This document shows, in pieces, positions 4,401 through 54,914 of a stretch of DNA of 64,000 nucleotides; positions within the stretch are counted from its first letter, which is position 1, and each line of letters starts with the position of its first letter. The notes beneath the pieces were generated by a model. That model saw only the letters and a program-made list of their open reading frames with translations, was not told the DNA's origin and did no database searches. Origin of the DNA: a virus; IMG/VR virus record IMGVR_UViG_3300005536_000001; one strand, given 5' to 3'. Both the position numbers and the translations under genes were made by a program.

Positions 4401-5538
4401 CTGTCTTCTTGTCACCAGGCTTTTCCTGATCTGGCTCGTGCCAGTCAGAAGCAAAATCACTGATTTCCTTGTATGCCTTTGACTTGATGACCGTCTTCTT
4501 GGTCTGCCACAGACCATTGTCATCTTTCTCACGAAGGTGATACTTGTTGCCTTCCCACAGGATGTGCTTCTTGCCGTCCTTTGTGACAGCGATAATCGAG
4601 CCGTCAGCCTGCTTCTTATGCACAAGACCATGTGTAATCTTAAGAGACTTGCCAGCCTTAAGACCACGAAGACCCTTACGACCATGATCCTTCTGGTCGT
4701 GCCTACCGCGCAAGTGAAACGCAGTCGCTGCCGCTGCTAGTGGTTCACCGTCAATCATCAAGAACTCCTCATCGGGAATATCCCAACCTAGCGTGCAGCG
4801 ACAAGAAATGGTTTCTTGCGGCGGTCCGGTGGGGTCGTGAGGATACGACATAGCATACCCGCCGACGATGAACTTATCGTCGATGCCAACTTCTTCACCA
4901 TCGATGTGTTCATGCGAAGGACGTGTGCGACTGTCGGTCGTCGCAATCCATTCCTTCGTCGCATTAAGTCCGGTGGCCTTCATCTCAGCGTATGAACCGG
5001 CATTGCTCGCGCCAATCACCTCGGTACGCGCAATGACCTCAGCGCGCGGTGAAGCAAGTTCAGTCGTCTTCATGAGACGATGACGAATCTCAGTAATGCT
5101 TTCACCGGCTTGCATACCAATCAGCATCTGCTGACGTGCGACGTTCCACACGAGATCGCCAATGGAGACAAGTCGATTAATCGCACTCTCGAGAAACAAC
5201 TCAGCAAGACGACTAACAACCTTCGGCACAAGAAACGCAGCGGTGAGTGCAACTGGTTGAGACTGCTGTGGTTGTGTCTGAGTCACCCGAGCAGCCGCTC
5301 GAATCAACTTCCCGTAGGTGTCGTCAGCCGAGTCAACCCACGCGTTACGGAGGTGTTCAATCAGCGCGTCGTTGACAGCAGAGGTCCAGTGGGTTCGAAT
5401 GATCGCGAGATCATTGATGTCTCCCACCTTAGGCATAGTGATATTGACGATCCTAGCAATCGTGCGCCTAATATCAGCAGCGAATCGATCACCACGATCA
5501 TCAAGCTGATCAAGACTAGGACCCGAGACGTGTACCAT
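1447..5538 (-). CDS. MuF-like minor capsid protein fused to seven repeat domains and a C-terminal ADP-ribosyltransferase domain
   Basis: 1363 aa ORF, RBS GAGGAAGG. N-terminal SPP1 gp7/Mu F-like motifs (RTEVIGASNAGSY, TRPSHEHIDGE, ETISCRCTL). Seven ~75 aa repeats each ending W(H/Y/W)xP. C-terminus carries LYRKT, ISTSIV and NENEFVLAPG (R, S-T-S, E-x-E). Confidence 0.9.
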   Translation of the reverse strand: MVHVSGPSLDQLDDRGDRFAADIRRTIARIVNITMPKVGDINDLAIIRTHWTSAVNDALIEHLRNAWVDSADDTYGKLIRAAARVTQTQPQQSQPVALTAAFLVPKVVSRLAELFLESAINRLVSIGDLVWNVARQQMLIGMQAGESITEIRHRLMKTTELASPRAEVIARTEVIGASNAGSYAEMKATGLNATKEWIATTDSRTRPSHEHIDGEEVGIDDKFIVGGYAMSYPHDPTGPPQETISCRCTLGWDIPDEEFLMIDGEPLAAAATAFHLRGRHDQKDHGRKGLRGLKAGKSLKITHGLVHKKQADGSIIAVTKDGKKHILWEGNKYHLREKDDNGLWQTKKTVIKSKAYKEISDFASDWHEPDQEKPGDKKTDDGDKKVTTDKKTTPTPAAAPTPVATDTASGASLKITHGLIHKKHADGTTIAVNKNGDKKVTWNGKSYDLDKKQADGSWKTEKTAIKSKAYKEVNDFDSAWHEPVAKGDDTELPSTRKTPAPAVKSVKSAATTLPNDVKYIKPGKQINLDQQYLDTHEFPDDSVIAISTFGTKKITAHGDKISFHHMDAKNKWVKNNETSMSDAQAAIDKADAYWHEPVAVSVGTPKSDKKSLVPAATPKPVASNTGVASDAVAKITPIPMEKELIEADKPLKIIDALSGDVPEYSTIAVTKDGNYRVVSLNGKYFEVQKNKKVGGWGPLTSFEKGDEYSDIVSLNKEWYTPKLATQKTKTVPSTSPMTAGEPIDITQDMFKDVNFPPKTVLAVNEDGTKRIMRSWNDTIAVQEWNAEFGVWTGSQWLTDGKEAEEVSKLNIKWHAPVETGSKATAPSAPGAPNVSTPKSTPTAPSKTIDKYAPVEPGRPITLAQEFFFQNYPANSTIAITPDGKTKIAWGNNGKYEILELDEKSGTWFVTENANQYGALAMAQNFSIEWHEPENASPSSINTPGNSSTSTKSANKLKHVYMGNKALLDQPVTLTQATFEDSYPSGSVIAMNAFGTYQLTREGGKFKIRANDGKGNWIVVQESDKDGAFKMADSFAADWWSVKTDVNSVTENYPVSAPSAPSAPSGPKTFTPFQKAYVQSIFGSNGVKWHTDTKKIYDAALEVSKKDSSLSMADALDIMDQSLLKKTDNPFATKMNKFLSTKAGMKYAQEKGGSAPVGSVTPSVAAASKSSVNIPKSNLPAKNLTKASATNMQQRMDLLSPPPWTAAQRAALKNYTGGSYTEINKCARGTGACSPATIAKIKQIKAAMKPSTENIKLYRKTNLATFGVTSNEQLEALAGKTIRDDGVISTSIVEGTWSGQVHLKIEAPAGSKMAWVQPISHYPNENEFVLAPGTEFEVISVEPHWSEPNQRVMKVRIVPGSGTP
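2415..4650 (-). repeat. seven tandem in-frame domain repeats inside the MuF-ART gene
   Basis: Units such as LKITHGLVHKKQADGSIIAVTKDGKK...DWHEP, LKITHGLIHKKHADGTTIAVNKNGDKK...AWHEP and five more diverged copies. Copies are separated by P/T/S/A-rich linkers. Confidence 0.8.
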
Positions 5539-7417
5539 TGATTACCTTCCTCGGATTCGCGACAAGTCGTGTATCGTCGTGATTGATGAGTCGCTGCCCG
5601 ATGGACAACTCGCCGCGATCAGTGAGGAAGCACTCGTAATCACCCTTTGTGCCAGGGCGGAATCGCACGCCTTCATAACTGGCATGCGTGAACGGGCAGG
5701 AGAATTGCTTCTCCATGCAGATGAGTGGATGCTTAAGCCGCCAGCTGTCAATCGTGAATTCCATCACGTGACGCATACCAGCTTGCATGATTGCGAACGC
5801 GCGATTCTCAGACGAGAGTGATTCGAATGGTACAGGACTTGGAATCAACGAACCAGCGGGCTTAGGCAACACGCTTTCAATTGCAATACGCTCAAGCTCA
5901 GCAGCCAATGCGGCAGGCGCAGGTGGTTCATCGTTTCCAGTGTTCGGTGGCCCATCGTTTGATGCACCACTATCGCCATCAGACTCAGCGCCAGTCACCA
6001 CTGGACCTTCGGTGGAAACAGCCGCCTGATTCGCCGGCTCTTCAAGTTTGATGCCAGTGAGTTCCTGCAATGCCTGAATGGCAAGAGTCGGGTTTGTTGC
6101 CAGCTTCTTAAGGATCATGTTGGCAAGCTCGGTGTCGTCAGGCGCATCATCCTCGTCAAAACCAGTTTCACGACGAAGAGCAGTGCCCGACAACTCGAAG
6201 CGGTCGTACACATCCTTGGCATTGTCCGACTTGTCTGGCCGCACCATCAATTCAGATGCGTCATACCAAACAACCCAGTCCTCGTAATCTTCGATGCCAG
6301 CAGCACGCATACGCGGGTGCAAGTATCCGGTAGTGAGACCATGAGTAATGATCTCAACATCAGGTGTGATGTAGGTACGAATGGCACCTTCTTCAAGCTG
6401 CCACAATCCCCAGTGATTGACATCACCTGCCTGGAAGAGCAGGTCGGCTGGGACGTTAATCTGTGAAGCCAAACGATTCCGAGCTGAGTCACGCTTTGCG
6501 ATGATGTTATCATCCATCTTAAGCGTGAAGTCAATGTGCTTTACCTTCTCCACGTACTCAGCAGGCACGCGAATTGGAAGCGGGATCAGCGATGATGCTG
6601 AGCCAGGATTCTTGATGGCTTCAGCAGCAGTCTCAATCCATTCACGAATGAACGGGTCAGGCTCATTCATAAATTCAGGACGCACAGGAAAAGTAATCTC
6701 ATCGGGGAAAATGATGAGACCGGCTGACGCAAGACGTGATAGGTACTGTGCCTGAATGTGTCGGTTGACCAACTCAAGTTCACGCATCGCGCTACGCGCG
6801 GAGTACGCGGACGAGTATGGTAGATAATGAAGCCGCTTGTGCGGACGCCAAATACGTGTCACGTATGATGTGGCAACAGGAAGCGTACGCCAAATGACAT
6901 CGGATTCCGTCGATTCATCAGAGATGACTTCATACTCGCGTCCACGACGTCGAATTTCGTCACTCGAGATGACACGCCACTTCTGCCGGTTACCCGTTGT
7001 CTCACCAACAAGCCAGCCCTCAGCGGGCACATCAAGGTACACAGAGAGCGAACCGAGCATTTCGGTCTGTCCGGCGGTGCCACGACAAAGTTCATTCACA
7101 AAGTCAGCCGCTGGACCTACATCGACAATCTCAGGCTCATCTGAACCGGGCTTCAACCTTGCAGCACGAAGCCGCACGCGAGAGATCATGTATGAACGCC
7201 ACGTCACGGAGATGTTGAATTCACCGAGCGTGTCGTAGTAATCCCACAGCTCACGCTGCCAACCATCATACTTTGGCGTTATGCGCGTGCGACCCCGTGC
7301 GATTGTGTTGACCGTCTGAGCAGCGGCGGTCAAAACACGTTCATCACGCGATGGCACAACGAGACGGGTGTCAACTGCCGCATGCTTGCTCTTCTTACGG
7401 CGATCCCACCATACCAT
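5516..7417 (-). CDS. portal protein
   Basis: 633 aa ORF lying between terminase and MuF. N-terminal KYDGWQRELWDYYDTLGEF pattern typical of actinophage portals. Size and synteny fit. Confidence 0.8.
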   Translation of the reverse strand: MVWWDRRKKSKHAAVDTRLVVPSRDERVLTAAAQTVNTIARGRTRITPKYDGWQRELWDYYDTLGEFNISVTWRSYMISRVRLRAARLKPGSDEPEIVDVGPAADFVNELCRGTAGQTEMLGSLSVYLDVPAEGWLVGETTGNRQKWRVISSDEIRRRGREYEVISDESTESDVIWRTLPVATSYVTRIWRPHKRLHYLPYSSAYSARSAMRELELVNRHIQAQYLSRLASAGLIIFPDEITFPVRPEFMNEPDPFIREWIETAAEAIKNPGSASSLIPLPIRVPAEYVEKVKHIDFTLKMDDNIIAKRDSARNRLASQINVPADLLFQAGDVNHWGLWQLEEGAIRTYITPDVEIITHGLTTGYLHPRMRAAGIEDYEDWVVWYDASELMVRPDKSDNAKDVYDRFELSGTALRRETGFDEDDAPDDTELANMILKKLATNPTLAIQALQELTGIKLEEPANQAAVSTEGPVVTGAESDGDSGASNDGPPNTGNDEPPAPAALAAELERIAIESVLPKPAGSLIPSPVPFESLSSENRAFAIMQAGMRHVMEFTIDSWRLKHPLICMEKQFSCPFTHASYEGVRFRPGTKGDYECFLTDRGELSIGQRLINHDDTRLVANPRKVINGTRLGS

Positions 7418-8062: not shown

Positions 8063-9424
8063 CTATCCGATCGAGCGGGACATGGAACCTCCACCTGCGA
8101 ATGAACCCATACCGCGAGGACGCGTGGCTACGATCTTGTTATGCCAAGCAGTCCACACCATAGCGTCAAGTCGGTCGGGTGAGTAATCGAGCTCAGGAGT
8201 CCAGGTGCACAACTGATCCTCAAGCTCTGGGAAAGTACCAACGTGATGCCACTGACCACGAGTGGAAAGTGCTGCAACAGGCTCGGCACGAACACGCTTA
8301 CCACGTGTTGCCACGACCATTTTCACGGGAATGGTGATACCCATTGAAAGCGCCGCGTCTCGGATTGTGACAACGGCCATTTCACCACCGTAGTTCGTCT
8401 CGACAACGATGTCGTCTGCTTCCCAGTCAATCGCCGCCTGGACTGCCCGACGACCCCATCCGGCAGGGCCGAGACGACACGTCATATCGGAAAGAACGAA
8501 ACCTTCAAAGCGCTTTTGCTTACGCTCCTTGACGATCTCATCGATGATGAACTTACCCGCGACGACGATACCTTGCTCACCAGCACCACCCGATGGGTCA
8601 ACACCGACCGTGACGCGTACAAGCTCAGGAGCTTCCTTAACACGGAAGTGATCGATGTCATCGCGTCGCCACAACGCGTTTTCATCCTGATCCATGACTT
8701 CGGCGTACAGTTCCTGTCGACCAATTTGCGTGCCTTCATAGTCCGCAAAAAGTTCGTCTCGAACGTGCTGCTCAAGGTAGGGATTATCGTGAGTCGTTGC
8801 GTGCGTGACAATGACGTTGTGCGGCGTGTTCTTAACAAGCTTCTTGATGAGCAACTTTGGCTTAGGCGTCGTACTCGCGATCCAGCGAGGTGTCTTACCG
8901 GTACGAAGACCAAACCGCATCTGCTCATAGCATTTGTCGAGATGACGCCAAGCCGCGAGTTCTTCAGCCCATACTAGGCATGTGTTACCGCCTGCGCGTA
9001 GACGTTCGATATCATCAGGCGTGGAAGCCCCGAATAGCTTCGCTTGCGAGCCGTTACTCCACTTGATAACAGTGCCGCCTAGACCTCCCGCAATACGAGA
9101 GGTCGGGTCGTTCGGTCCAATCCCCGCCGGCCCCGCGAAACACGCCTGGACAGCGTCTCCAAGCGTCGGACCAATGATACCAATCCAGTGAGGTGTGCTG
9201 CCGGGTAGACACGGCGGGCCCTTCACATGATCGATCACGTATTGCGCACACGTGCGGGTTTTTCCAGAACCACGACCCGCGTTCAAAAGCCAGCCATACC
9301 AGTTTCCAGCTGGTGGAATCTGGTGAGGGCGGGGGTTCCAACCCGGCGGGCGCTCGAGATAACTCATCAAAGCGCGTGCAGAAGCGCCAGCGACTTCGCT
9401 GCGCGTCATTCCACCGGCGGTCAT
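8063..9424 (-). CDS. terminase large subunit
   Basis: 453 aa. Walker A NAGRGSGKT. Nuclease-domain VGVDPSGG. Located upstream of the portal gene. Confidence 0.9.
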   Translation of the reverse strand: MTAGGMTRSEVAGASARALMSYLERPPGWNPRPHQIPPAGNWYGWLLNAGRGSGKTRTCAQYVIDHVKGPPCLPGSTPHWIGIIGPTLGDAVQACFAGPAGIGPNDPTSRIAGGLGGTVIKWSNGSQAKLFGASTPDDIERLRAGGNTCLVWAEELAAWRHLDKCYEQMRFGLRTGKTPRWIASTTPKPKLLIKKLVKNTPHNVIVTHATTHDNPYLEQHVRDELFADYEGTQIGRQELYAEVMDQDENALWRRDDIDHFRVKEAPELVRVTVGVDPSGGAGEQGIVVAGKFIIDEIVKERKQKRFEGFVLSDMTCRLGPAGWGRRAVQAAIDWEADDIVVETNYGGEMAVVTIRDAALSMGITIPVKMVVATRGKRVRAEPVAALSTRGQWHHVGTFPELEDQLCTWTPELDYSPDRLDAMVWTAWHNKIVATRPRGMGSFAGGGSMSRSIG

Positions 9425-11163: not shown

Positions 11164-12378
11164 CTACTTACGACCGGGCGTGACAAGCGTGATGTGCGAA
11201 GCCGCAGGAATGTAACCAAACGGGTCAATCACGACGCTACCGCTCGGGAACGTGATGTTGGCGTATTCAGGGTGCTTCGTCGCGATGAAGAAAATGCGTG
11301 CTGTGAAAGACGAGGTGGACATGTACGGGTCCTTGCCCTCAACGATGAAGTCAGTGTGCAAGAACTTGATGCCTGCACCTGCGAGAAGATCAGCGAGTAG
11401 CATCGCGGGAGAACCTGCGGTGGAATTGACGCATGGCTTGTATGTCATACCAAAGATGGTGATTGGTAGTCCAGTGAGGCGCTGCCACTTTACGATGAGA
11501 CTTGCCTGCCACGACGCATGCGCCTGCCGCGCTGAGACGAGATACCCCATCAAGTCGACCGACATGTTGTGCTTGACTGCGAGTGCTGACATGGCAATGT
11601 TGTCACGCGGATGGCACGCTCCGCCATCACCCATTCCAGCGGTGAGATACTTCGTCGAGATGATGCGGTCAGTACCATAGCCGAGGGCGGTCGTCACCTC
11701 ATCGACGTCAGCGCCAGTGTTGTCGCACATTTCCGCCATCGTGTTGGCGAACACAATCTTCATAGTGATGAAGGTGTTGTAGGCCACCTTCGTGAGCTCT
11801 GCCGACGCGATCGAGACCACGCAAGGCGGCGAAGAATGCATGCCCTCATAGAGATCGAGGACCCGCTGTTCGTCACCCGGAGTGTCCACGCCGAGCAACA
11901 CGAATTCCGGGTTGGTGAAGTCATCGATCACGGTGCCCATGGCGATGAAGAACGGGTGATATACAAGTCGAGTGTGCACATTGAGTAGCGGACGAATGTC
12001 TCGATCAACCGTGCCAGGCAGCACAGTGGAGACGATGACAATCGTGATGTTCTTGCCCAGATCACTCGCTGTCTTGGCAATTGCACGCACCGCGTTGATG
12101 AGATAGCCATACTCGAAATCTTCAGGCTCGAAGTCATCATCCATCGCGGTTTCACCGCCAAAGTCAGCGGCATGCGGCGTCTGGACAGCGACGTACACGA
12201 CATCATCAGTGTGCTTGACAACATCATCGAGGGAATTAGTTCGTGACACAAACTTTCCCTCTTCAGTCGCGCCACCGTTGATGTCGTAACCGAGAACATC
12301 ATGCCCACCATACACGTTCAAGGCCCATGCGCACGGTAGCCCCAACTTACCAAGTCCCACCCAGCTGACCGCACTCAC
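11164..12378 (-). CDS. nucleotide-sugar dehydrogenase (UDP-glucose/GDP-mannose dehydrogenase family)
   Basis: 404 aa. Rossmann motif VGLGKLGLPCA. Catalytic-Cys motif GGACHPRDN. Confidence 0.75.
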   Translation of the reverse strand: MSAVSWVGLGKLGLPCAWALNVYGGHDVLGYDINGGATEEGKFVSRTNSLDDVVKHTDDVVYVAVQTPHAADFGGETAMDDDFEPEDFEYGYLINAVRAIAKTASDLGKNITIVIVSTVLPGTVDRDIRPLLNVHTRLVYHPFFIAMGTVIDDFTNPEFVLLGVDTPGDEQRVLDLYEGMHSSPPCVVSIASAELTKVAYNTFITMKIVFANTMAEMCDNTGADVDEVTTALGYGTDRIISTKYLTAGMGDGGACHPRDNIAMSALAVKHNMSVDLMGYLVSARQAHASWQASLIVKWQRLTGLPITIFGMTYKPCVNSTAGSPAMLLADLLAGAGIKFLHTDFIVEGKDPYMSTSSFTARIFFIATKHPEYANITFPSGSVVIDPFGYIPAASHITLVTPGRK

Positions 12379-12980
12379 GAGTTAGTCCTCCTCTTGTACA
12401 ACCCCTTGAACGGCGTTCCATCAACGGTAGACTCTACTGCCACCAGCGAGAGCTGGGGGTACTGAAACACCATCTTCGCAGGGGTCAGAGTATCCTGCAA
12501 GTGACGCTGATGGATGTTCCCGTCTTCCTCACCCTGAGGATAATCATAGGGAACGATCACGTAGTATTCAGTGCACACACGCTCAAAATCAAGCAGCATC
12601 TGCTGTGCGCGCTCGAGATCCAAGTGCTCAAGCACATCGCCAAAAATGACCACATCCCAGTGCGTGCCATCGGGGAATTGCGTGACAACATACGCGGCAT
12701 CACCGATGTACACAGTGTCATACAATTCATGAAGCCTATGTTCTTCGATGTATGGCTCGAAAATCTCGATGGCATCCATCTGTGGGTAATCGGCAAGAAG
12801 CACTCGATACTTACCCTGCCCAGCGCCAACGTCAAGGATGCGAATGTCCAGTGGGTCGTATTGACTCACCTGTCGTCGAACCTGCGCACCCGCCCAATCA
12901 TACGTACTCAGCCAGTTGTTCCGGTATGCATGCGCCATCGCATCCGAAAGATGTTCATTCACAGCTGCTCCACCAGCCAC
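12375..12980 (-). CDS. class I SAM-dependent methyltransferase
   Basis: 201 aa. Motif I ILDVGAGQGKY. Later VIFGDVLEHL. Confidence 0.7.
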   Translation of the reverse strand: MAGGAAVNEHLSDAMAHAYRNNWLSTYDWAGAQVRRQVSQYDPLDIRILDVGAGQGKYRVLLADYPQMDAIEIFEPYIEEHRLHELYDTVYIGDAAYVVTQFPDGTHWDVVIFGDVLEHLDLERAQQMLLDFERVCTEYYVIVPYDYPQGEEDGNIHQRHLQDTLTPAKMVFQYPQLSLVAVESTVDGTPFKGLYKRRTNS

Positions 12981-13933
12981 TTCACAGTCTGCTCAAGACC
13001 ATCATCAAATGAATGGGTTGGACTCCAGTCTTGATTTGGAATAAGCTCTGCGTACTTCGGATCCCAACCCGGTCGTGCATCTTCACCGCGCTGCTTAATG
13101 GTGTATGGTGCTTTACCCATCATATCACCGATGCGATTAACGAGCGACATATTATCCACGTACTCTTGCCCCTGAAGCACGATACGCTCTGGGAACTGAA
13201 ACAAATCACTCGTGTGTTCAGCATCTTCACGAAGAAGCCCGATGATGTGTTCGGTAACATTCTTCACATAGGTGTAATGCCGACCACCAGGGAAATCCGC
13301 GTAGTAATGCACGGGAATTCGAGTACCCTCGTTGATCCAGCGCACAACCTTGGGGATGAAGGCCAGCTCAGACTGCCTCTGGCCAAACATATTGGCGCTA
13401 TTGACAATCGCTACCGGAATTCGGAACGTACGCCTGTACGAGTGACAGATGTCCTCCTGAGACGCCTTAGAGGCGGCATACGGACTGCTTGGCTGGTGAT
13501 CTGCTGGGGCGCAGGGGGACGTCCGTCCGTACACCTCGTCCGTTGACATGTGAATGAATCGACGCGGTCCCGTTTCACGCGCCAATTCAAGCATGTTGAG
13601 CATCAACTGGACATTGTTGCTAATGAAGCCAACAGGGTCTTTAATGCTTGCCTCGACCTGACTCATCGACGCGATGTTCACGATGTAGTCAATGTCACCG
13701 ATAAAATCAAACTGCTGATTGCGAAATGGCACCGAGAGATCATGTGTCATGTGCGAAACACCACGACCAGCCTGTCGCAAATCGGACATAGCCTGCATCG
13801 TTGACCGGACATTCCCGTTATGCCAGGCCTTGAGGGAATCAATGCAGACGACATCCCAGTCAGTCTTCTGCAACACCGTCTCGAGGACATGACTCCCCAC
13901 GAATCCAGCAGTGCCTGTGATAAGTACTCTCAC
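12959..13933 (-). CDS. NAD-dependent sugar epimerase/dehydratase (SDR family)
   Basis: 324 aa. MRVLITGTAGFVGSHV glycine-rich loop. YAASKAS (YxxxK) catalytic motif. Confidence 0.85.
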   Translation of the reverse strand: MRVLITGTAGFVGSHVLETVLQKTDWDVVCIDSLKAWHNGNVRSTMQAMSDLRQAGRGVSHMTHDLSVPFRNQQFDFIGDIDYIVNIASMSQVEASIKDPVGFISNNVQLMLNMLELARETGPRRFIHMSTDEVYGRTSPCAPADHQPSSPYAASKASQEDICHSYRRTFRIPVAIVNSANMFGQRQSELAFIPKVVRWINEGTRIPVHYYADFPGGRHYTYVKNVTEHIIGLLREDAEHTSDLFQFPERIVLQGQEYVDNMSLVNRIGDMMGKAPYTIKQRGEDARPGWDPKYAELIPNQDWSPTHSFDDGLEQTVKWLVEQL

Positions 13934-46419: not shown

Positions 46420-48783
46420 TCACGACCTCAAACTGTTCAACCATGACGTAGTTCCATTGGCGAACTTAATGCCTCGATAACCCCGACCCTTCTCCCCATT
46501 AATCGAAATCGCACCTGGCGGCCGCTCAATGCCATGTCCAACAAGTGCCTTACCCAAGACAGCAGCGTTGAACTTATCAACACCGCGCAAGCCATGTTCC
46601 ACAGCCCATCGTTCGTACGCAGCATAAAGATCTTTATTAAAGAGCGCGTCCCCGCTATTGCCCGTCCTAATCAATACATCATCGATGAATTGCCCAACGT
46701 AGTCCTCTTCATCACGATAAGATTGCACATCTGCCTTGATGCTGTCCGGAATTCCGAGTCCGCCAAGCTCGCGGTAACCCTGCAATCCTTCCAGTGCCCA
46801 GCGTAGGATGCCCGACGCTTCCTCCGAGTACAACAAATCTCCATAGCCAGCAATCGCCTTACCAGGCGCAATCTTTCCATGACAGACAACCCGATGCATT
46901 CGATTCCAGACACCATCACTGGGATCCCGAATCGTAGGCTGCCCATTTCCGGCAATCCACAATTTGAACTGCGCGTCGAACTCATAGAAGTTTTTGTTCA
47001 TCTTCCGGGCTTTGACACGCTTTGACCCGGTCAACGCCTTCAGTCGCTCGACGTTAAGCGCCTTACCCTGTCGTGTCTCATCGATGAAGACCAGCCGTGC
47101 TCCTTGGAGATCCGCCAGGATCGTCGGGTGCTGCTCATCACCACCGGTCAACAATGCAGTGGTGGCGGTCTTCGCGTAACTTCCCATCACCATCATAAGC
47201 GGCTCAACGAATGCATTTTTACCGTTACTTCCCGTTCCCTCCATGAAGAAGAACGATCGCGCGCCGACATTACCGGTGAGCGAATATCCAGCAGCACGCT
47301 GCAGGTACGCCATCAGAATGGGATCACCATTACAGACAAAATGTACGTGAGACAACCACCGCTCGAACGGTGCATCCTCGACGTAATCCACTTCAGCCAA
47401 GTGACTACACAGCTCATCTCTCCTTGACTCGCGCAACTTCCCAGTGAGCAAATCCAGTGTGCCGTTGCGTACCACCAGGATATTGGGGTCGCTATCCATA
47501 TCAGTCGTGTTGATAACCAAGCTAGGCTCGGACTCTGCGCCCGCGATCATTGCTTTACGACGAGCTAGACTTTCCGAGTCTCTTGCCCAGTTGAGCCAGC
47601 GGGTGCGGTCATCTCCCTCCGCAGCGATAGCATCAGCACGAATGGCATCGACGACATTCTTAGTGAGTTCCATGACACGGTTCGTGTCGTCGGGACACCA
47701 GCGAACGTCATCCCAGACATACCACTGATCTTCACGCACCGCGTACCTGATGCGATCTCCAAGCAACTGCACCATCCGCATGGAGTTACCCATGTCAGTG
47801 GCGAGTGCTTCACGTGGTGGCAGCTCGTTAACTTCAGTGAGCGCCTGTCCACCAGCGAGTCGCTGTGCGTACGCAAGAGCCCCTGGACCCAAACCCTGCA
47901 TCATTCCACTACTCAAGCCAGGCGAGTAGGTGCGCCGAACCCGATCCACCATCTCGATGATGTCACTCGCGGTCCAGGGTTGCTCACCCGGAACGTTCTC
48001 CATGCGCTGAAGAAGCAGCATCCCAACGCTGATCATCTCGACGCGTCGGAAGTTCCTTGCACGCATAGAGCACATATAGTCGAACAACCGCGCGTTCTGC
48101 TCACCCGGCGGCAGACCGTGCTCGAACATCGCATCGACATTGATGACCTGACCGTCTTGCCCGGTAAGCGGTGAATCATCACCACTGTGATCTTCACCGC
48201 TGCCAGACGTCCGAGGACCACTACCTGCTTGCAGCCCCGCGACCCACTCATCAGGCAGCGCAGGGAACTCCCCCAGTCCGGGGATGTCATCCAAGACCGT
48301 GTTATCCGGCGCGAGCCACTTGTACGTCTCATTGATGTCAGGATGCACAGACGGCCACACCATGGCAAACCGGTGTCCGAAGCGGATGATCTCGACGTTC
48401 GATCCGGTGCCAAGATCCGACTTCCAGTTCAAGCCAGGCGGAACCCGGAAGAACCTGATGCCCGAGCCATCGGTTCTCGCACTGGACCTGGGTGAAAGCG
48501 GCAATACACAATCCAGCTGTGATTCCCACCACTCGATGGTCTCGAGACCCTTACGCCCGTCATATGCATCGACATCGATACCAATGATGTCATCAGGCAT
48601 ACGCAGACCGATGTTATCAGTGCCCCGGACATTCACCCAGTCATCAATGACGGCATCAGTAGGCCATGCACCGTTATACCCGGTGTACCCAGTCGGTGCC
48701 ATTCGTTTACCCACAATAGGCAGCACACCCTGCCAACCAGCATTGCGGTAAAGCTCCGCGGCCTCCCCATACGGCCCCGTCAT
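46420..48783 (-). CDS. bifunctional DNA primase-polymerase / D5-type helicase
   Basis: 787 aa. N-terminal prim-pol motifs (IGLRMPDDIIGIDVDAYDG). C-terminal Walker A MEGTGSNGKN. Confidence 0.85.
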   Translation of the reverse strand: MTGPYGEAAELYRNAGWQGVLPIVGKRMAPTGYTGYNGAWPTDAVIDDWVNVRGTDNIGLRMPDDIIGIDVDAYDGRKGLETIEWWESQLDCVLPLSPRSSARTDGSGIRFFRVPPGLNWKSDLGTGSNVEIIRFGHRFAMVWPSVHPDINETYKWLAPDNTVLDDIPGLGEFPALPDEWVAGLQAGSGPRTSGSGEDHSGDDSPLTGQDGQVINVDAMFEHGLPPGEQNARLFDYMCSMRARNFRRVEMISVGMLLLQRMENVPGEQPWTASDIIEMVDRVRRTYSPGLSSGMMQGLGPGALAYAQRLAGGQALTEVNELPPREALATDMGNSMRMVQLLGDRIRYAVREDQWYVWDDVRWCPDDTNRVMELTKNVVDAIRADAIAAEGDDRTRWLNWARDSESLARRKAMIAGAESEPSLVINTTDMDSDPNILVVRNGTLDLLTGKLRESRRDELCSHLAEVDYVEDAPFERWLSHVHFVCNGDPILMAYLQRAAGYSLTGNVGARSFFFMEGTGSNGKNAFVEPLMMVMGSYAKTATTALLTGGDEQHPTILADLQGARLVFIDETRQGKALNVERLKALTGSKRVKARKMNKNFYEFDAQFKLWIAGNGQPTIRDPSDGVWNRMHRVVCHGKIAPGKAIAGYGDLLYSEEASGILRWALEGLQGYRELGGLGIPDSIKADVQSYRDEEDYVGQFIDDVLIRTGNSGDALFNKDLYAAYERWAVEHGLRGVDKFNAAVLGKALVGHGIERPPGAISINGEKGRGYRGIKFANGTTSWLNSLRS

Positions 48784-50611: not shown

Positions 50612-51790
50612 GTGGAACAGATCAACGATAAGCTCGTCAACTTCGCGTCCATTCTCGAAGACCAGACACGCAAGCAGGCCGAGCAGACTTCAACGATGCC
50701 GTTCATCCACCCACACGTTACGCTCATGCCCGACGCGCATCTCGGCCGTGGAAGTACCGTCGGCTCCGTGATTCCGACGCTCGGTGCCATCATGCCAGCA
50801 GCGGTCGGCGTGGATATCGGGTGTGGAATGATCGCAGTGCGCACGCAGTTCACCAAGCATGACTTCACGGAATCCGAGAAGTCTCTCACGGCGCTTCGGG
50901 AGCTGATCGAAGCAACCATCCCGACGTCGGCCGGCAAGTACAACACGGAACTCACGAACACCGCCAAGTTGCGCATTGACATCCTCAAGAGGAAGGCTCT
51001 CGAGTCCGCCGAGTTCAACCCGAGCGACTACTCGCACAACTGGGAACTCCAGCTTGGCACTTTGGGTGGCGGCAACCACTTCATCGAGATCACCATCGAC
51101 GAAATGGATCGCGTGTGGCTCTTTCTCCACTCGGGCTCACGCGGTGTTGGCAACAAGATCGCGCAGCGACACATCAAGATCGCGGCGCAGCAGTGCGAGA
51201 AGCGATGGATCAGCCTTCCGAACCCGGACCTCGCGTACCTCGTCGAGGGTGAGCCCGAGTTCTGGCGCTACATCCGCGAGATGCGGTGGGCTCAGGAGTT
51301 CGCATGGATGAACCGCGAAGAGATGATGGATCGTCTCATGCTGTGTGTTGAGGAGTGGAGTGGTGAATCGATCGAGGTGCAGGACACGGTGAACTGTCAC
51401 CATAACTACACCATGTCCGAAAAGCACTTCGGCAAGCAGGTGTGGCTGTCTCGCAAGGGTGCCATTGATGCGTCACTTGGTACCATGGGTCTCATCCCAG
51501 GTTCGATGGGAACGGCATCGTACGTGGTCGAGGGCAAGGGCAATCACGTCTCGCTCAACTCTTCACCACACGGCGCGGGACGCAACTTCTCGCGTAAGGA
51601 GGCACGGAAGATGTTTACGCATGACGATCTTCGTGAAGCGATGAAGGGCATCGAGTATCGTGACTCCGCGGCGTTCGTGGACGAGATCCCCGGCGCGTAC
51701 AAGGACATCGACGTCGTGATGGCCGATTCCACCGATCTCGTCACCGTCAAGCACACGCTTCATCAGATTCTCAATGTGAAGGGCGACTAA
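50612..51790 (+). CDS. rtcB: RNA ligase RtcB (3'-phosphate/2',3'-cyclic phosphate to 5'-OH)
   Basis: 392 aa. GTG follows AGGAGAG. Motifs DAHLGRGSTVGSV, GVDIGCGM, GGGNHFIE, HSGSRGVGN, CHHNY, GSMGTASYVV, SSPHGAGR. Confidence 0.9.
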   Translation: MEQINDKLVNFASILEDQTRKQAEQTSTMPFIHPHVTLMPDAHLGRGSTVGSVIPTLGAIMPAAVGVDIGCGMIAVRTQFTKHDFTESEKSLTALRELIEATIPTSAGKYNTELTNTAKLRIDILKRKALESAEFNPSDYSHNWELQLGTLGGGNHFIEITIDEMDRVWLFLHSGSRGVGNKIAQRHIKIAAQQCEKRWISLPNPDLAYLVEGEPEFWRYIREMRWAQEFAWMNREEMMDRLMLCVEEWSGESIEVQDTVNCHHNYTMSEKHFGKQVWLSRKGAIDASLGTMGLIPGSMGTASYVVEGKGNHVSLNSSPHGAGRNFSRKEARKMFTHDDLREAMKGIEYRDSAAFVDEIPGAYKDIDVVMADSTDLVTVKHTLHQILNVKGD

Positions 51791-53515: not shown

Positions 53516-54253
53516 ATGTCTCGTCGTCTCATCTCGGTCGTCATGCTTCAGCGCACGCTCAAGGCGCGAGTCAGCACGGTCGTGAACGAAGCATACAAGA
53601 ACGTGCAGAAGGCGCCACTCTTCGCGGGTATCGCGCGTGAGTACACTCCCAAGGCAGAAGAGGGCCAGAAGCTTCCGTCTGAGGCACTTCAGGTCCAGCT
53701 GGTGGCCTCTTCGCTGATCAGTGCCATTGCGACTGATCTCGGTCAGCTGTGGGACCTGACCGCAACGCGTGACGCGGGTAACCAGGTTGCCAAGGGCAAC
53801 GTTGTTGTGCGTGGCCGTGTCATCCTGAACGACGTCTCGAGCAGCAACCTCCTCTTCCTGGAGAAGCAGCTCATCGATGTTCGTACGTTCATCACCGCGT
53901 GCCCCGTGCTCGACACGGCCAAGGAGTGGACGACCGACGAGATCACTGGCATCAGTCGCACCCGGCCGGTCGAAACGACCCGTTCGGAGAAGATCGAGGA
54001 AACGGTCGTCGTGGTGCCGCCCAACGAGCGTCACCCGGCACAGACTCGTGATCGCGTGCGTGACCAGATCGTCGGCACGTGGGCCACGACTCACCTCTCT
54101 GGTGCACTCACGGCGCTCCAGCAGCACAAGCTGATCAATCGCGTGAACGAGCTCATCGACGCGGTGAAGATCGCGCGTGAGGAAGCCAACCTCGTCACCG
54201 TCGAGGACGTGAAGGTCGGCGACGCTCTCTTCGGCTTTCTGCTCGAAGAGTAG
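53516..54253 (+). CDS. hypothetical protein
   Basis: 245 aa ORF lying directly upstream of the tRNA-like cluster. Confidence 0.6.
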   Translation: MSRRLISVVMLQRTLKARVSTVVNEAYKNVQKAPLFAGIAREYTPKAEEGQKLPSEALQVQLVASSLISAIATDLGQLWDLTATRDAGNQVAKGNVVVRGRVILNDVSSSNLLFLEKQLIDVRTFITACPVLDTAKEWTTDEITGISRTRPVETTRSEKIEETVVVVPPNERHPAQTRDRVRDQIVGTWATTHLSGALTALQQHKLINRVNELIDAVKIAREEANLVTVEDVKVGDALFGFLLEE

Positions 54254-54345
54254 CGGGTTTGATAGAGTTTCCTAGTCGACAAACTGCTTGAAAATCTTCG
54301 GACTTCAATCGGTGTTCGTCAGGGGAATGTTCGGGCTGTAAGGTT

Positions 54346-54433
54346 TACACGGGAGCTCACTCGGTTCAGAGCATCCTGGCTGACTGTGGTGGTGAAGCCA
54401 GGAAGGTTGCGGGTTCAAATCCCGTCCGTGTAG
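54346..54433 (+). tRNA. tRNA-like gene with expanded anticodon arm (anticodon not assignable)
   Basis: Acceptor TACACGG/CCGTGTA. D arm GCTC-ACTCGGTTCA-GAGC. T arm GCGGG-TTCAAAT-CCCGT. The anticodon position holds an 8 bp stem (TCCTGGCT/AGCCAGGA) with a 14 nt loop. Confidence 0.45.
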
Positions 54434-54468
54434 CGCGGTACCAACCTCAATCTCATGAAGTGCAAAAA

Positions 54469-54544
54469 CCCAGGACATAGTGCAGGTTCGAACCCTGCCT
54501 CCGGCACTCAAGTCGGAGTAGCCCAAACTGGCAGAGGCGCTGGG
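54469..54544 (+). ncRNA. permuted tRNA-like module 1 (3' half, loop, 5' half)
   Basis: Order along the strand: CCCAG, T arm GCAGG-TTCGAAC-CCTGC, CTCCGGC, loop ACTCAA, GTCGGAG, TA, D arm GCC-CAAACTGGCAGA-GGC, CTGGG. The acceptor and anticodon stems pair across the permutation. Confidence 0.55.
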
Positions 54545-54636
54545 CACGACCTTATCAGCTTCAAGAGTCATCCTGTCGTACCACAACCTCAGCTTAAGCT
54601 TGTGCGATCCCGGATCAATCGGGTGCGACCTAATCA

Positions 54637-54707
54637 GCTCAAGACCCGGGTTCAAATCCCGGGGCAGCCTCTGCGTGGCTGCCTGGTGTTAGCGGTAACA
54701 CGTGAGC
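54637..54707 (+). ncRNA. permuted tRNA-like module 2 (3' half, loop, 5' half)
   Basis: Order along the strand: GCTCA, AGAC, T arm CCGGG-TTCAAAT-CCCGG, GGCAGCC, loop TCTGCGT, GGCTGCC, TG, D arm GTGT-TAGCGGTA-ACAC, G, TGAGC. All four helices are perfect. Confidence 0.6.
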
Positions 54708-54765
54708 GAATTAAACCTGAGTTGCATCCTTAAACGTCGCCGGGTTCGTAATCACAGGCAACAAC

Positions 54766-54837
54766 CGACACGTAGCTCACTTGGCAGAGCAACAGACTAT
54801 TAATCTGTATGAACCGGTTCGAATCCGGTCGTGACAA
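54766..54837 (+). tRNA. tRNA with anticodon loop CTATTAA (anticodon ATT)
   Basis: 72 nt cloverleaf. D arm GCTC-ACTTGGCA-GAGC. Anticodon stem ACAGA/TCTGT. T arm ACCGG-TTCGAAT-CCGGT. Acceptor CGACACG/CGTGACA has C1-A72 and A3-A70 mismatches. Confidence 0.55.
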
Positions 54838-54846
54838 CACTTCTAT

Positions 54847-54882
54847 GGGGGCCGGGCCAGGGTAGGCTCGGTCCCCTCTTTT
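54847..54882 (+). terminator. intrinsic terminator after tRNA cluster
   Basis: GGGGCCGGGCC-AGGGTA-GGCTCGGTCCCC followed by TCTTTT. Confidence 0.65.
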
Positions 54883-54914
54883 AATTCCCACCCGGGATTT
54901 AAATAGGAGAGCGC

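What the first reader, a model, noticed from the sequence alone, without database searches (positions are those of the whole stretch)
54469..54707. Two tRNA-like modules with circularly permuted topology about 3 kb downstream of rtcB
Both modules present the tRNA parts in the order 3' half, short loop, 5' half.

Module 1 reads: CCCAG (54469-54473), a perfect T arm, acceptor 3' strand CTCCGGC, a 6 nt loop, acceptor 5' strand GTCGGAG, a D arm, and CTGGG (54540-54544).

Module 2 reads: GCTCA (54637-54641), a T arm, GGCAGCC, a 7 nt loop, GGCTGCC, D arm GTGT/ACAC with a GG-containing loop, and TGAGC (54703-54707).

In each module the 7 bp acceptor stem and the 5 bp anticodon stem are complementary across the permutation. 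The acceptor stem is closed by a loop and the molecule is open where the anticodon loop should be. Neither 5' acceptor strand has a downstream partner in normal gene order.

Two readings are possible:
- tRNA-mimic domains of YrlA-type bacterial Y RNAs. As I recall, these have this connectivity and lie next to rtcB in enterobacteria.
- Permuted tRNA genes that need end-joining in the anticodon loop, which would make them RtcB substrates.

No canonical 7 nt anticodon loop can be assembled from the flanks.
Basis: partly seen in the sequence, partly recalled or inferred. Interest (0 to 1): 0.8.

Follow-up and report, generated by a model that had tools for sequence, protein, structure and literature searches.

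The report
Paired tRNA-mimic RNAs beside DUF7873 gene
The two "inside-out" tRNA-like modules are real, conserved non-coding RNAs of the bacterial Y-RNA (YrlA) type, but they travel with an uncharacterised protein gene (DUF7873) in hundreds of bacteria and phages rather than with the usual Ro60 partner, which points to a tRNA-mimic RNA-protein system that has not been described.

Summary
Both modules (54469-54544 and 54637-54707) fold as circularly permuted cloverleaves. Standard tRNA finders miss them, and no such module appeared in 50 shuffles of the window.

Across 24 homologous modules, 94% of cells are paired against 56% in shuffles, and all 17 base pairs show compensatory changes.

The connectivity is that of the YrlA tRNA-like domain. 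A model trained on these modules finds the Ro60-linked YrlA of mycobacteriophage Bxz1.

The flanks form long, covarying stems and there is no anticodon loop. The "permuted tRNA joined by RtcB" reading is therefore not supported. RtcB lies within 3 kb in only 4 of 160 related loci.

- **No Ro60.** No Ro60/TROVE gene was found in about 81 kb of this 95-kb phage genome.
- **Constant neighbour.** The modules form an ordered pair (Y1, Y2) directly downstream of a DUF7873 gene in about 156 of 160 sampled loci, drawn from at least 543 bacterial species genomes and 361 viral contigs. In phages the unit is often inside tRNA clusters.
- **DUF7873 fold.** The AlphaFold2 model is confident but matches no known fold.

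Best reading: a Ro60-independent, YrlA-like RNA pair with DUF7873 as candidate partner. I class it as a new variant of a known kind.

The parts
53516..54253 (+). DUF7873 (PF25283) gene, 245 aa. It is the conserved upstream neighbour of the RNA pair and the candidate protein partner.
   Evidence: Pfam E 1.9e-77. AlphaFold2 model pLDDT 90.7, with no Foldseek match at E<=1e-3 in PDB or BFVD. No PDB sequence homologue. No PHROGs, PADLOC or NCBIfam hit. About 156 of 160 homologous loci carry the modules just downstream.
54260..54268 (+). TGATAGAGT, a conserved element resembling an extended -10 promoter, directly after the DUF7873 stop codon. It is the putative start of the RNA operon (inferred).
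   Evidence: TAGAGT is conserved in five of the six lineages aligned in A3; L012 reads TAGGGT. The sigma-70 consensus scan found nothing, so this reading rests on conservation only.
54346..54432 (+). Element A: a collinear tRNA-like RNA with a 7-bp 'anticodon' stem and an oversized loop carrying conserved UGUGGUGG. It is specific to this phage family and a few others.
   Evidence: Rfam tRNA partial match, 23.1 bits against a gathering score of 29. Compensatory changes in the acceptor and anticodon stems. An analogue lies at L180 3836-3914.
54435..54584 (+). Y1 RNA (approximate ends). Basal helix GCGGUAC 54435-54441 with GUACCAC 54578-54584. Mid helix GUG 54460-54462 with CAC 54545-54547.
   Evidence: Fold. 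Model R1, trained only on Y2 copies, hits 54466-54547 at 28.6 bits, E 3e-5. The closing stem is present with a different sequence in all 11 Y1 copies I read. The outer helices are read by eye, with partial covariation in L003, L012 and L013.
54469..54544 (+). Module 1: the permuted cloverleaf head of Y1. It carries U8, G18G19 (54530-54531), T54-T55-C56 (54487-54489) and A58 (54491). N73-N74 is AC.
54598..54759 (+). Y2 RNA (approximate ends). A long bulged stem: GCUUGUGCGA 54598-54607 with 54746-54759; an inner 9-bp helix 54621-54629 with 54720-54728; UAAU with AUUA. It carries the conserved motifs AUCAAUCG (54614-54621) and UUAAACG (54730-54736).
   Evidence: RNAalifold on 3 sequences and on 10 sequences; the inner helix has 2-5 sequences with changes on both sides at eight of its nine pairs. 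Motif enrichment downstream against upstream: UUAAAYG 96 against 4 and AUCRAYYG 76 against 15 of 160 loci. Motif positions.
54637..54707 (+). Module 2: the permuted cloverleaf head of Y2. It carries G18G19 (54694-54695), T54-T55-C56 (54651-54653) and A58 (54655). N73-N74 is UC.
   Evidence: (z -3.23).
54766..54838 (+). Collinear tRNA that closes the array. The anticodon is ATT here and the acceptor stem has non-canonical pairs.
   Evidence: ARAGORN. Rfam tRNA 57.7 bits. The anticodon loop differs among close relatives.
54847..54886 (+). Intrinsic terminator: a 12-bp G+C-rich stem followed by a T run. It ends the RNA operon.
   Evidence: Conserved in all relatives.
50612..51790 (+). RtcB RNA ligase gene. 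It is context only, not a conserved partner of the modules.
   Evidence: Pfam and PHROGs. RtcB lies within 3 kb in only 4 of 160 DUF7873 loci. It is absent from the syntenic position in L012.

Best explanation
The two modules are the tRNA-like heads of two YrlA-class (Y-RNA-like) non-coding RNAs: Y1 (about 54435-54584) and Y2 (about 54598-54759).

Shown:
- Each RNA pairs its 5' and 3' flanks into the 'anticodon' stem and a longer bulged stem.
- Each acceptor stem is closed by a loop, and there is no anticodon, so they cannot decode.
- Together with the upstream DUF7873 gene they form a conserved three-part unit, DUF7873-Y1-Y2, found in many Actinomycetota, some other phyla and many phages. In phages the unit is usually inside tRNA gene clusters.

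Inferred:
- They are made from a roughly 600-nt RNA-only operon (element A, Y1, Y2, tRNA). It would start at a conserved element resembling an extended -10 promoter just after DUF7873 and end at the terminator at 54847-54886.
- Y1 and Y2 act as protein-bound tRNA mimics. The conserved stem motifs (AUCRAYYG and UUAAAYG) would dock a protein, most likely DUF7873 in the place of Ro60. The L-shaped head would engage tRNA-recognising factors, such as processing, modification or repair enzymes, or host anticodon nucleases.
- The 7-bp acceptor stem, the near-universal N73-C74, and NCCA encoded in 28% of copies suggest that RNase P cuts the acceptor loop and a CCA end is made, as shown experimentally for M. 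smegmatis YrlA.
For: Structure:
- Minimum-free-energy folds reproduce both cloverleaves.
- 94.2% of cells are paired, all 17 pairs have compensatory changes, and the covariation score is 0.928 against 0.218 in shuffles.
- Closing stems are present with different sequences in 11 Y1 and 14 Y2 copies.
- The inner helix of the Y2 stem covaries.

Class:
- Rfam YrlA aligns the same element order.
- Model R1 finds the Ro60-linked YrlA of Bxz1 at 31.8 bits and finds Y1 copies it was not trained on. The Bxz1 score lies within the range R1 gives tRNA-tRNA junctions, so it is suggestive only.
- Published YrlA anatomy, and RNase P cleavage with CCA addition in M. smegmatis, are in PMC4201824.

Linkage to DUF7873:
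- 143 of 160 loci have a module in the strict scan, 96 of them exactly two. Only 8 hits lie elsewhere in 1.07 Mb.
- The covariance model recovers 13 of the 17 loci that the strict scan missed.
- 75 of 80 bacterial loci have modules.
- Annotated examples are Phendrix, Mimi, Keelan, Klebsiella phage KpLz-2_45, Pseudanabaena phage PA-SR01, Vibrio phage D472 and a Rhizobium phage, plus Nonomuraea and Streptomyces chromosomes.
- Y1 and Y2 are distinct paralogues: N73 is A in Y1 and U or G in Y2.

No Ro60:
-.
- No Arthrobacter, Klebsiella, Pseudanabaena or Rhizobium phage record matches Ro60.

Same functional neighbourhood as Ro60:
- 3 of 80 viral loci have a Pfam-confirmed TROVE gene within 3 kb, one of them with a PNKP phosphatase gene as well.
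- Syntenic Gordonia phages carry either a Ro-like gene (Forza) or DUF7873 with Y1 and Y2 (Phendrix) in the same tRNA cluster.

Operon: terminator and conserved leader.
Against: - There are no expression, end-mapping or binding data of any kind. The role of DUF7873 rests on gene-RNA adjacency alone.
- DUF7873 has a near-neutral pI of 6.4 and no recognisable RNA-binding fold.
- A host-encoded Ro60, or a Ro60 gene in the roughly 14 kb of the phage genome I did not see, cannot be excluded.
- The window's own copies lack an encoded CCA (ACUCAA and UCUGCGU), so acceptor-loop cleavage is uncertain here.
- Module 1 alone folds only marginally better than shuffles (z -1.5).
- Model R1 also scores tRNA-tRNA junctions up to about 35 bits. 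Similarity scores to YrlA are therefore not specific on their own.
- The outer helices of Y1 were read by eye.
Confidence: 0.7

Rival explanations
1. These are classical Ro60-dependent YrlA RNAs. They are bound by a Ro60/Rsr supplied by the host, or encoded in the unseen part of the phage genome. DUF7873 is an accessory factor or merely a neighbour.
For: - The connectivity is the same as YrlA, and the models cross-detect each other.
- UUAAACG also follows the D arm of the Ro60-linked Bxz1 YrlA.
- 3 of 80 viral DUF7873 loci have a TROVE gene within 3 kb on the same strand.
- About 14 kb of the 95-kb genome was not inspected.
Against: - No TROVE gene in about 81 kb of the genome.
- Complete phage genomes with the unit show no Ro60 match, including Arthrobacter, Klebsiella, Pseudanabaena and Rhizobium phages.
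- The Ro60-binding motif GNCGAAN0-1G is absent from 54254-54900 and is not enriched downstream of DUF7873 (74 against 70 loci).
- The tight, ordered linkage is to DUF7873, not to Ro60.
Confidence: 0.2
2. These are free tRNA-shaped decoys. The RNAs act without a dedicated protein, as competitive inhibitors or sponges for host tRNA-targeting nucleases or tRNA-modifying enzymes. Having no anticodon loop, they cannot themselves be cut.
For: - They keep tRNA tertiary-contact nucleotides but have no anticodon loop.
- They sit inside phage tRNA islands.
- Competitive inhibition of an anticodon nuclease has been proposed for Salmonella YrlA (PMC7790460).
- RtcB and PNKP genes are occasional neighbours.
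Against: - The unit is equally conserved in bacterial chromosomes with no phage context.
- The conserved stem motifs and the obligatory DUF7873 neighbour argue for a protein-bound particle.
- This rival overlaps the best explanation rather than excluding it.
Confidence: 0.15
3. These are circularly permuted tRNA genes. The transcript ends are joined in the anticodon loop by RtcB, and the acceptor loop is removed to yield decoding tRNAs.
For: - The 3' half precedes the 5' half.
- The acceptor stems are 7 bp, and some relatives encode NCCA.
- RtcB lies 2.7 kb upstream.
Against: - The flanks extend the 5-bp stem into long covarying helices rather than into loop halves or a bulge-helix-bulge motif.
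- No conserved 7-nt loop sequence is available from the flanks.
- RtcB is near only 4 of 160 loci and is missing at the syntenic place in L012.
- The same RNAs occur in bacterial chromosomes without RtcB nearby.
- From general knowledge, bacteria lack the tRNA splicing endonuclease that such genes need in algae and archaea.
Confidence: 0.03
4. These are decayed or rearranged tRNA gene remnants, or chance complementarity in a tRNA-rich region.
For: - They lie next to a tRNA and a tRNA-like element.
- The covariance model also scores junctions between tandem tRNAs.
Against: - No hits in 50 shuffles.
- All 17 pairs covary across phyla.
- The order and position after DUF7873 are conserved in about 156 of 160 loci, including chromosomes with no tRNA genes nearby.
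Confidence: 0.01

Closest known systems
YrlA (Rfam RF02553), the tRNA-like bacterial Y RNA bound by Ro60/Rsr (Chen et al. 2014, PMC4201824). Examples: Salmonella rsr-yrlBA-rtcBA, M. smegmatis, mycobacteriophage Bxz1.
   Same: - The order of elements is the same: 5' stem strand, variable region, T arm, acceptor-like stem closed by a loop, D arm, 3' stem strand.
- tRNA tertiary-contact nucleotides are kept (U8, G18G19, T54-T55-C56, A58).
- More than one Y RNA per locus, sometimes co-transcribed with a tRNA.
- The 7-bp acceptor stem with N73-C74 is as in M. smegmatis YrlA, which RNase P cleaves and which receives CCA.
- YrlA also occurs in phage tRNA regions.
- The two kinds of model cross-detect each other at 20-37 bits.
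   Different: - There is no Ro60/TROVE gene nearby in this genome or in most related loci.
- The constant neighbour is DUF7873.
- The Ro60-site motif GNCGAAN0-1G is absent. AUCRAYYG and UUAAAYG are conserved instead.
- The RNAs always come as an ordered pair of two tRNA-like paralogues (Y1 with A73, Y2 with U or G73), not as one tRNA-like YrlA plus a hairpin-like YrlB.
- Scores are below the Rfam gathering score.
Circularly permuted tRNA genes (Cyanidioschyzon merolae and other algae; Thermofilum pendens). This comparison is from general knowledge.
   Same: The 3' half (T arm and acceptor 3' strand) is encoded upstream of the 5' half (acceptor 5' strand and D arm), with a short intervening sequence between the acceptor strands.
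   Different: Those genes yield true tRNAs through a circular intermediate made at a bulge-helix-bulge motif, and they have a complete anticodon loop. Here there is no anticodon loop and no such motif, the stem is long and closed, and the bacterial or phage context lacks a splicing endonuclease.
Two-piece (permuted) tmRNA (Rfam RF04321 and related families).
   Same: The gene order is T arm, acceptor 3' strand, (N)CCA, loop, acceptor 5' strand, and the flanks pair into a long helix. Phendrix Y1 gives a weak match (19.3 bits).
   Different: There is no tag reading frame and there are no pseudoknots. The window copies have a genuine D arm and no G3-U70 pair. The window gives no tmRNA_permuted match at E<=10.
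Deinococcus radiodurans Yrn1 and Yrn2 (Ro60-bound Y RNAs made as a polycistronic precursor with tRNA-Asp; PMC4201824).
   Same: Several Y-type RNAs and a tRNA come from one transcript. Yrn1 resembles tRNA and keeps an anticodon-like arm, as element A does.
   Different: They depend on Ro60, carry the Ro60-binding box, and are restricted to Deinococcus.

Membership tests
YrlA / bacterial Y RNA (RF02553; Chen et al. 2014) | A tRNA-like domain in the order T stem-loop, acceptor-like stem-loop, D stem-loop, inside a stem formed by the RNA's 5' and 3' parts | tested here: met
   (94.2% paired; all 17 pairs covary). Rfam YrlA aligns module 1 to model positions 30-81 in this register.
YrlA / bacterial Y RNA (RF02553; Chen et al. 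2014) | Score at or above the Rfam gathering threshold (69 bits) | tested here: not met
   Module 1 scores 18.4 bits and module 2 gives no hit. The Phendrix and Mimi homologues score 37.1 and 32.9 bits. Control: the Ro60-linked Bxz1 YrlA also scores only 32.5 bits, so this threshold is a poor discriminator for actinophage copies.
YrlA / bacterial Y RNA (RF02553; Chen et al. 2014) | Encoded within about 4 kb of a Ro60/TROVE gene on the same strand | tested here: not met
   No TROVE domain among the window ORFs scanned, which included all ORFs of 450 aa or more. tblastn with the Bxz1 and Forza Ro60 proteins finds nothing at E<=1 in the window, L023 or L024, together about 81 of 95 kb. The Pfam lists of the flanking genes show no TROVE. 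Only 3 of 160 related loci have TROVE within 3 kb.
YrlA / bacterial Y RNA (RF02553; Chen et al. 2014) | GNCGAAN0-1G motif near the 5' end (proposed Ro60 contact) | tested here: not met
   No match in 54254-54900, while the Bxz1 control region has one. The motif is not enriched downstream of DUF7873: 74 against 70 of 160 loci. A different motif, AUCRAYYG, occupies the 5' stem strand.
YrlA / bacterial Y RNA (RF02553; Chen et al. 2014) | Physical binding by Ro60/Rsr; tRNA-type modifications (pseudouridine 55, dihydrouridine) | not testable with these tools
   Needs immunoprecipitation and modification mapping.
Circularly permuted tRNA gene | The 3' half is encoded upstream of the 5' half, with complementary acceptor strands | tested here: met
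Circularly permuted tRNA gene | The transcript ends can be joined to give a canonical 7-nt anticodon loop (bulge-helix-bulge or equivalent) and a decoding tRNA | tested here: not met
   The flanks continue as covarying helices. No conserved loop halves are present. RtcB is not co-conserved.
Canonical tRNA | A collinear cloverleaf recognised by ARAGORN or Rfam RF00005 | tested here: not met
   Only 54766-54838 is called. At E<=10 the only other RF00005 match is element A, not the modules.
Two-piece tmRNA | A tag reading frame and pseudoknots downstream of the acceptor 5' piece; G3-U70 alanine identity pair | tested here: not met
   No tmRNA or tmRNA_permuted hit in the window at E<=10. The acceptor pairs at 3:70 are C-G (Y1) and C-G (Y2) by direct reading.
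DUF7873-Y1-Y2 unit (defined here) | Two permuted tRNA-like modules on the same strand within about 0.5 kb downstream of a PF25283 gene. The first has N73 = A and the second has N73 = U or G. | tested here: met
   In the window, DUF7873 ends at 54253. Y1 head is at 54469-54544 (AC) and Y2 head at 54637-54707 (UC).

The most novel reading that the evidence does not exclude
DUF7873 is the dedicated protein partner of a distinct, Ro60-independent class of paired Y-like tRNA-mimic RNAs (Y1 and Y2). Together they would form a widespread but undescribed ribonucleoprotein, found in Actinomycetota and other bacteria and in the tRNA islands of many phages. RNase P would nick its RNAs in the acceptor loop so that they carry CCA ends. 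The particle would work in tRNA surveillance or repair, or in countering tRNA-targeting defence systems, as a functional alternative to Ro60 with YrlA.
Probability: 0.45. Interest if true: 0.85.

Novelty: new variant of a known kind. Interest (0 to 1): 0.72.

Why it matters
Bacterial Y RNAs have so far been defined by their Ro60 partner and were searched for only in genomes that carry a TROVE domain.

Here the same tRNA-mimic design is tied almost invariably to a different, structurally novel protein. The unit occurs in at least 543 bacterial species genomes and at least 361 viral contigs, and in phages it often sits inside tRNA clusters.

If DUF7873 binds these RNAs, three things follow:
- Y-RNA-type particles would extend beyond Ro60.
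- A large domain of unknown function would gain a first functional handle.
- There would be a tractable system for asking what the tRNA-like head is for, which has been open since 2014. Suitable systems are the SEA-PHAGES phages Phendrix, Keelan and Mimi, and Streptomyces.

It also has a practical side. These RNAs are currently unannotated, or are overwritten by spurious small CDSs in phage records.

Tried and rejected
- **DNA similarity to phages.** megablast and blastn of the region against GenBank phages found no match. Relatives had to be found through the DUF7873 protein instead.
- **Rfam at gathering score.** It found nothing but the tRNA.
- **Function of DUF7873.** I tried PHROGs, PADLOC, NCBIfam, PDB sequence and profile searches, and Foldseek against PDB and BFVD. 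Nothing was significant. The weak Cas7/RAMP Foldseek rows have TM scores below 0.2 and I disregarded them.
- **Promoter.** The sigma-70 scan found none.
- **Outer stem of Y1.** RNAalifold on MAFFT-aligned Y1 flanks did not recover it because the flanks are not aligned structurally. I read the helices by eye instead.
- **Specificity of model R1.** It cross-hits junctions between tandem tRNAs at up to about 35 bits, so I did not use its scores alone as evidence of homology.
- **Forza YrlA.** I found no full YrlA upstream of the Forza Ro-like gene, only a T arm with a 4-bp stem.
- **Mutual exclusivity of Ro60 and DUF7873.** I considered this and rejected it as a strict rule, because 3 of 80 viral loci have both.
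- **Trailing tRNA as part of the unit.** Rejected, because its identity varies freely across families.
- **Literature.** No held paper mentions DUF7873. The Sim et al. 2020 review was not held, and searches did not turn up Burroughs and Aravind 2016, so a prior mention there cannot be excluded.
Full report
**1. The observation**

- Module 1: CCCAG 54469-54473; T arm GCAGG-TTCGAAC-CCTGC 54482-54498; acceptor 3' strand CTCCGGC 54499-54505; loop ACTCAA; acceptor 5' strand GTCGGAG 54512-54518; UA; D arm; CTGGG 54540-54544.
- Module 2: GCTCA 54637-54641; T arm CCGGG-TTCAAAT-CCCGG 54646-54662; GGCAGCC; loop TCTGCGT; GGCTGCC 54677-54683; D arm GTGT/ACAC; TGAGC 54703-54707.

Both keep nucleotides that build the tRNA L-shape: U8, G18G19, T54-T55-C56 and A58.

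RNAfold returns exactly these permuted cloverleaves. The z-score is -3.2 for module 2 and only -1.5 for module 1.

ARAGORN and Rfam at gathering score see only a collinear tRNA at 54766-54838.

A strict pattern scan finds just these two sites in the window and none in 50 shuffles.

**2. Genome context**

The window is part of an uncultured phage. It encodes:
- terminase, 8063-9424;
- primase-polymerase, 46420-48783;
- RtcB, 50612-51790;
- thymidylate synthase and dCMP deaminase;
- family A DNA polymerase;
- an SNF2 helicase.

It shares no nucleotide similarity with isolated phages. Its DNA polymerase is at most 36% identical to those of actinophages.

The same genome is a 95,029-bp contig. Together with two flanking loci I inspected about 81 kb of it.

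The gene directly upstream of the RNA region is a 245-aa DUF7873 protein (PF25283, E 2e-77).

**3. The region is a four-element RNA operon**

Between the DUF7873 stop codon (54253) and a strong intrinsic terminator (54847-54886) lie four elements:
- Element A (54346-54432), a collinear tRNA-like RNA with an oversized anticodon arm. Rfam tRNA gives 23 bits.
- Y1, which carries module 1.
- Y2, which carries module 2.
- A tRNA.

Relatives at 58-99% DUF7873 identity (L001-L004, L012-L014) keep all four elements, the linkers, and a leader element TGATAGAGT that resembles an extended -10 promoter. Every stem carries compensatory substitutions in the diverged relatives.

**4. The modules are closed by long stems and have no anticodon loop**

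In Y2 the 5-bp 'anticodon' stem continues through several helices:
- UAAU with AUUA;
- a 9-bp inner helix;
- a conserved asymmetric internal loop, AUCAAUCG at 54614-54621 on the 5' side and UUAAACG at 54730-54736 on the 3' side;
- an outer helix reaching about 54598 and 54759.

The inner helix shows 2-5 sequences with changes on both sides at eight of its nine pairs, across ten genomes from different phyla.

In Y1 the stem continues as GUG with CAC across an A-rich bulge, down to a basal GCGGUAC with GUACCAC helix (54435-54441 with 54578-54584). I read this by eye, with partial covariation.

In 11 Y1 and 14 Y2 copies from unrelated genomes the closing stem is present with a different sequence each time.

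On a model-fitted alignment of 24 modules:
- 94.2% of cells pair, against 55.7% in shuffles;
- all 17 pairs show changes on both sides;
- the covariation score is 0.928 against 0.218;
- sliding the partners drops pairing to 34-49%.

The alignment leans towards the model, but the T arm and acceptor columns were already aligned by MAFFT, and the sequences of the closing stems were read independently.

**5. What travels with the modules**

DUF7873 homologues in GenBank phages are each followed by an unannotated gap of 300-700 nt. The phages include Gordonia phages Phendrix, GodonK and Keelan, Arthrobacter phage Mimi, Klebsiella jumbo phage KpLz-2_45, Pseudanabaena phage PA-SR01, Vibrio phage D472 and Rhizobium phage RHph_Y1_11. 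That gap holds one or two permuted modules. The same is true in Nonomuraea and Streptomyces chromosomes.

In a wider sample I took 80 of at least 543 bacterial species genomes and 80 of 361 viral contigs.
- 143 of 160 loci have a strict module within 1.5 kb downstream on the same strand, and 96 have exactly two.
- Only 8 strict hits lie anywhere else in 1.07 Mb.
- The covariance model recovers 13 of the 17 loci that the strict scan missed.
- The two copies are distinct paralogues: N73 is A in the first and U or G in the second, and N74 is almost always C.
- 28% encode NCCA directly after the 7-bp acceptor strand.
- The motifs UUAAAYG and AUCRAYYG are enriched downstream against an upstream control: 96 against 4 and 76 against 15 loci.

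In phages the unit usually sits inside tRNA clusters.

By contrast, RtcB lies within 3 kb in only 4 of 160 loci, three of which are this phage's own family. The relative L012 has no RtcB at the syntenic position.

**6. Relation to YrlA and Ro60**

Chen et al. 2014 (PMC4201824) define YrlA by four features:
- a T stem-loop, an acceptor-like stem-loop and a D stem-loop in this order;
- a stem formed by the 5' and 3' parts of the RNA;
- a GNCGAAN0-1G motif;
- a location within 4 kb of Ro60 on the same strand.

They also showed that M. smegmatis YrlA, which has a 7-bp acceptor stem, is cut by RNase P and receives CCA.

Results for the first two features:
- The architecture is met.
- Rfam YrlA aligns module 1 in register (18.4 bits).
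- It aligns the Phendrix and Mimi Y2 copies over the full model (37.1 and 32.9 bits).
- The gathering score of 69 bits is missed. So is it by the Ro60-linked YrlA of Bxz1, at 32.5 bits, which makes that failure uninformative.
- Model R1, trained only on Y2 copies, finds Bxz1 YrlA at 31.8 bits. It also scores tRNA-tRNA junctions to about 35 bits, so I treat the Bxz1 hit as suggestive only.

Results for the other two features:
- GNCGAAN0-1G is absent from the window RNA region and present in the Bxz1 control.
- It is not enriched downstream of DUF7873.
- No Ro60 gene was found in the window or the flanks inspected.
- No Arthrobacter, Klebsiella, Serratia, Pseudanabaena, Rhizobium, Ralstonia or Microcoleus phage record matches Ro60 at E<=1e-3, although phages of these hosts carry DUF7873.

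The two systems nevertheless touch.
- Three of 80 viral loci have a Pfam-confirmed TROVE gene within 3 kb. One of them has the order Ro60, PNKP phosphatase, DUF7873, Y1, Y2.
- The syntenic Gordonia phages Forza and Phendrix carry alternative units in the same tRNA cluster. Forza has a Ro-like gene. Phendrix has DUF7873 with Y1 and Y2.

**7. DUF7873**

The AlphaFold2 model is confident (pLDDT 90.7, pTM 0.75). It matches nothing in PDB or BFVD at E<=1e-3, and no sequence or profile hit is informative. It is not a HEAT-repeat ring with a vWA domain like Ro60. Its pI is 6.4. The only evidence for a role with the RNAs is the near-universal gene-RNA linkage.

**8. Mechanism**

Shown:
- There are two structured, conserved RNAs with permuted tRNA-like heads on long stems.
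- They have no anticodon.
- They are linked to DUF7873 rather than to Ro60 or RtcB.

Inferred:
- They are transcribed as one RNA operon and processed into separate RNAs.
- The stem motifs dock a protein, with DUF7873 the prime candidate.
- The head engages tRNA-recognising factors.
- RNase P nicks the acceptor loop and a CCA end is formed. This rests on N73-C74 conservation, the encoded NCCA in relatives, and the M. smegmatis precedent.

The biological role is open. Possibilities are tRNA surveillance or repair in tRNA islands, and a decoy for anticodon nucleases as suggested for Salmonella YrlA (PMC7790460).

**9. Verdict**

The YrlA-type reading is supported in architecture, but three membership features fail (Ro60 neighbour, Ro60-site motif, Rfam threshold). 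I therefore file it as a new variant of the Y-RNA kind, the DUF7873-Y1-Y2 unit, and not as a YrlA member.

The reading as a permuted tRNA gene matured by RtcB is not supported.

No held paper mentions DUF7873. Two relevant papers could not be read or found.

Noticed in passing
window 54346-54432 (+): Element A is a collinear tRNA-like RNA (acceptor TACACGG/CCGTGTA, normal D and T arms). Its 'anticodon' arm is a 7-bp stem with a 14-25-nt loop of variable length that carries conserved UGUGGUGG. Both stems covary in relatives. A similar element precedes Y1 in L180 3836-3914. It is not a decoding tRNA, and its function is unknown.
   Followed up: partly
window 54766-54838 (+); L001 6252-6324; L003 6245-6316; L012-L014: The body of the trailing tRNA is conserved, but the 5' half of its anticodon loop differs between near-identical relatives: CTATTAA (att, window), CTTCTAA (tct), CTTATAA (tat) and CACTTAA (L012). 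The acceptor stem keeps an A2-A71 mismatch, and a G7-A66 mismatch in some relatives, with a compensatory change at 4:69. This could be anticodon switching under selection, or a non-standard tRNA.
   Followed up: partly
window 54444-54456 and 54585-54599; L012 about 6895-6915; L021 3300-3320; L018 3325-3350: A short repeated linker motif, RACUNA (AGACUCAGACUCAG, AAACUCAAACUCAA, ACCUCAAUCUCA), lies before Y1 and between Y1 and Y2 in very distant genomes. It may be a processing or protein-binding site.
   Followed up: no
L009 6259-6504 (Gordonia phage Keelan gene 126); L018 3425-3520 (Vibrio phage D472): Annotated 'hypothetical protein' CDSs overlie the Y1 and Y2 modules. These are probably over-annotation of RNA genes.
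   Followed up: partly
L167 59-3984 (IMGVR_UViG_3300044735_000037): The gene order here is Ro60 (TROVE with vWA), PNKP-type phosphatase, DUF7873, Y1, Y2, then three tRNA-Leu genes. This is a rare locus that joins the Ro60 system and the DUF7873 unit.
   Followed up: partly
L022 (Gordonia phage Forza) against L007 (Phendrix): These phages have syntenic tRNA clusters. Forza carries a Ro-like gene at the head of the cluster and nothing between tRNA-Asp and tRNA-Leu. Phendrix carries DUF7873 with Y1 and Y2 between tRNA-Asp and tRNA-Leu, and no Ro60 in the 45 kb examined.
   Followed up: partly
window 1447-5538 (-): A 1363-aa protein combines a phage Mu-F-like head-morphogenesis domain with a C-terminal ADP-ribosyltransferase toxin domain. 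It is a polyvalent, probably virion-delivered effector.
   Followed up: no
window 11164-13933 (-); L023 15522-18924: The phage encodes UDP-glucose/GDP-mannose dehydrogenase, an NAD-dependent epimerase/dehydratase, a nucleotidyltransferase, a SIS-domain protein and glycosyltransferases. This looks like a sugar-nucleotide pathway, possibly for modifying DNA or the cell surface.
   Followed up: no
L018 1435-1539 and 1820-1924 (Vibrio phage D472): Further T-arm-containing elements (…GAGG TTCGATT CCTCT…) lie under tiny annotated CDSs upstream of DUF7873. They may be additional tRNA-like RNAs. They appeared only in the relaxed scan.
   Followed up: no
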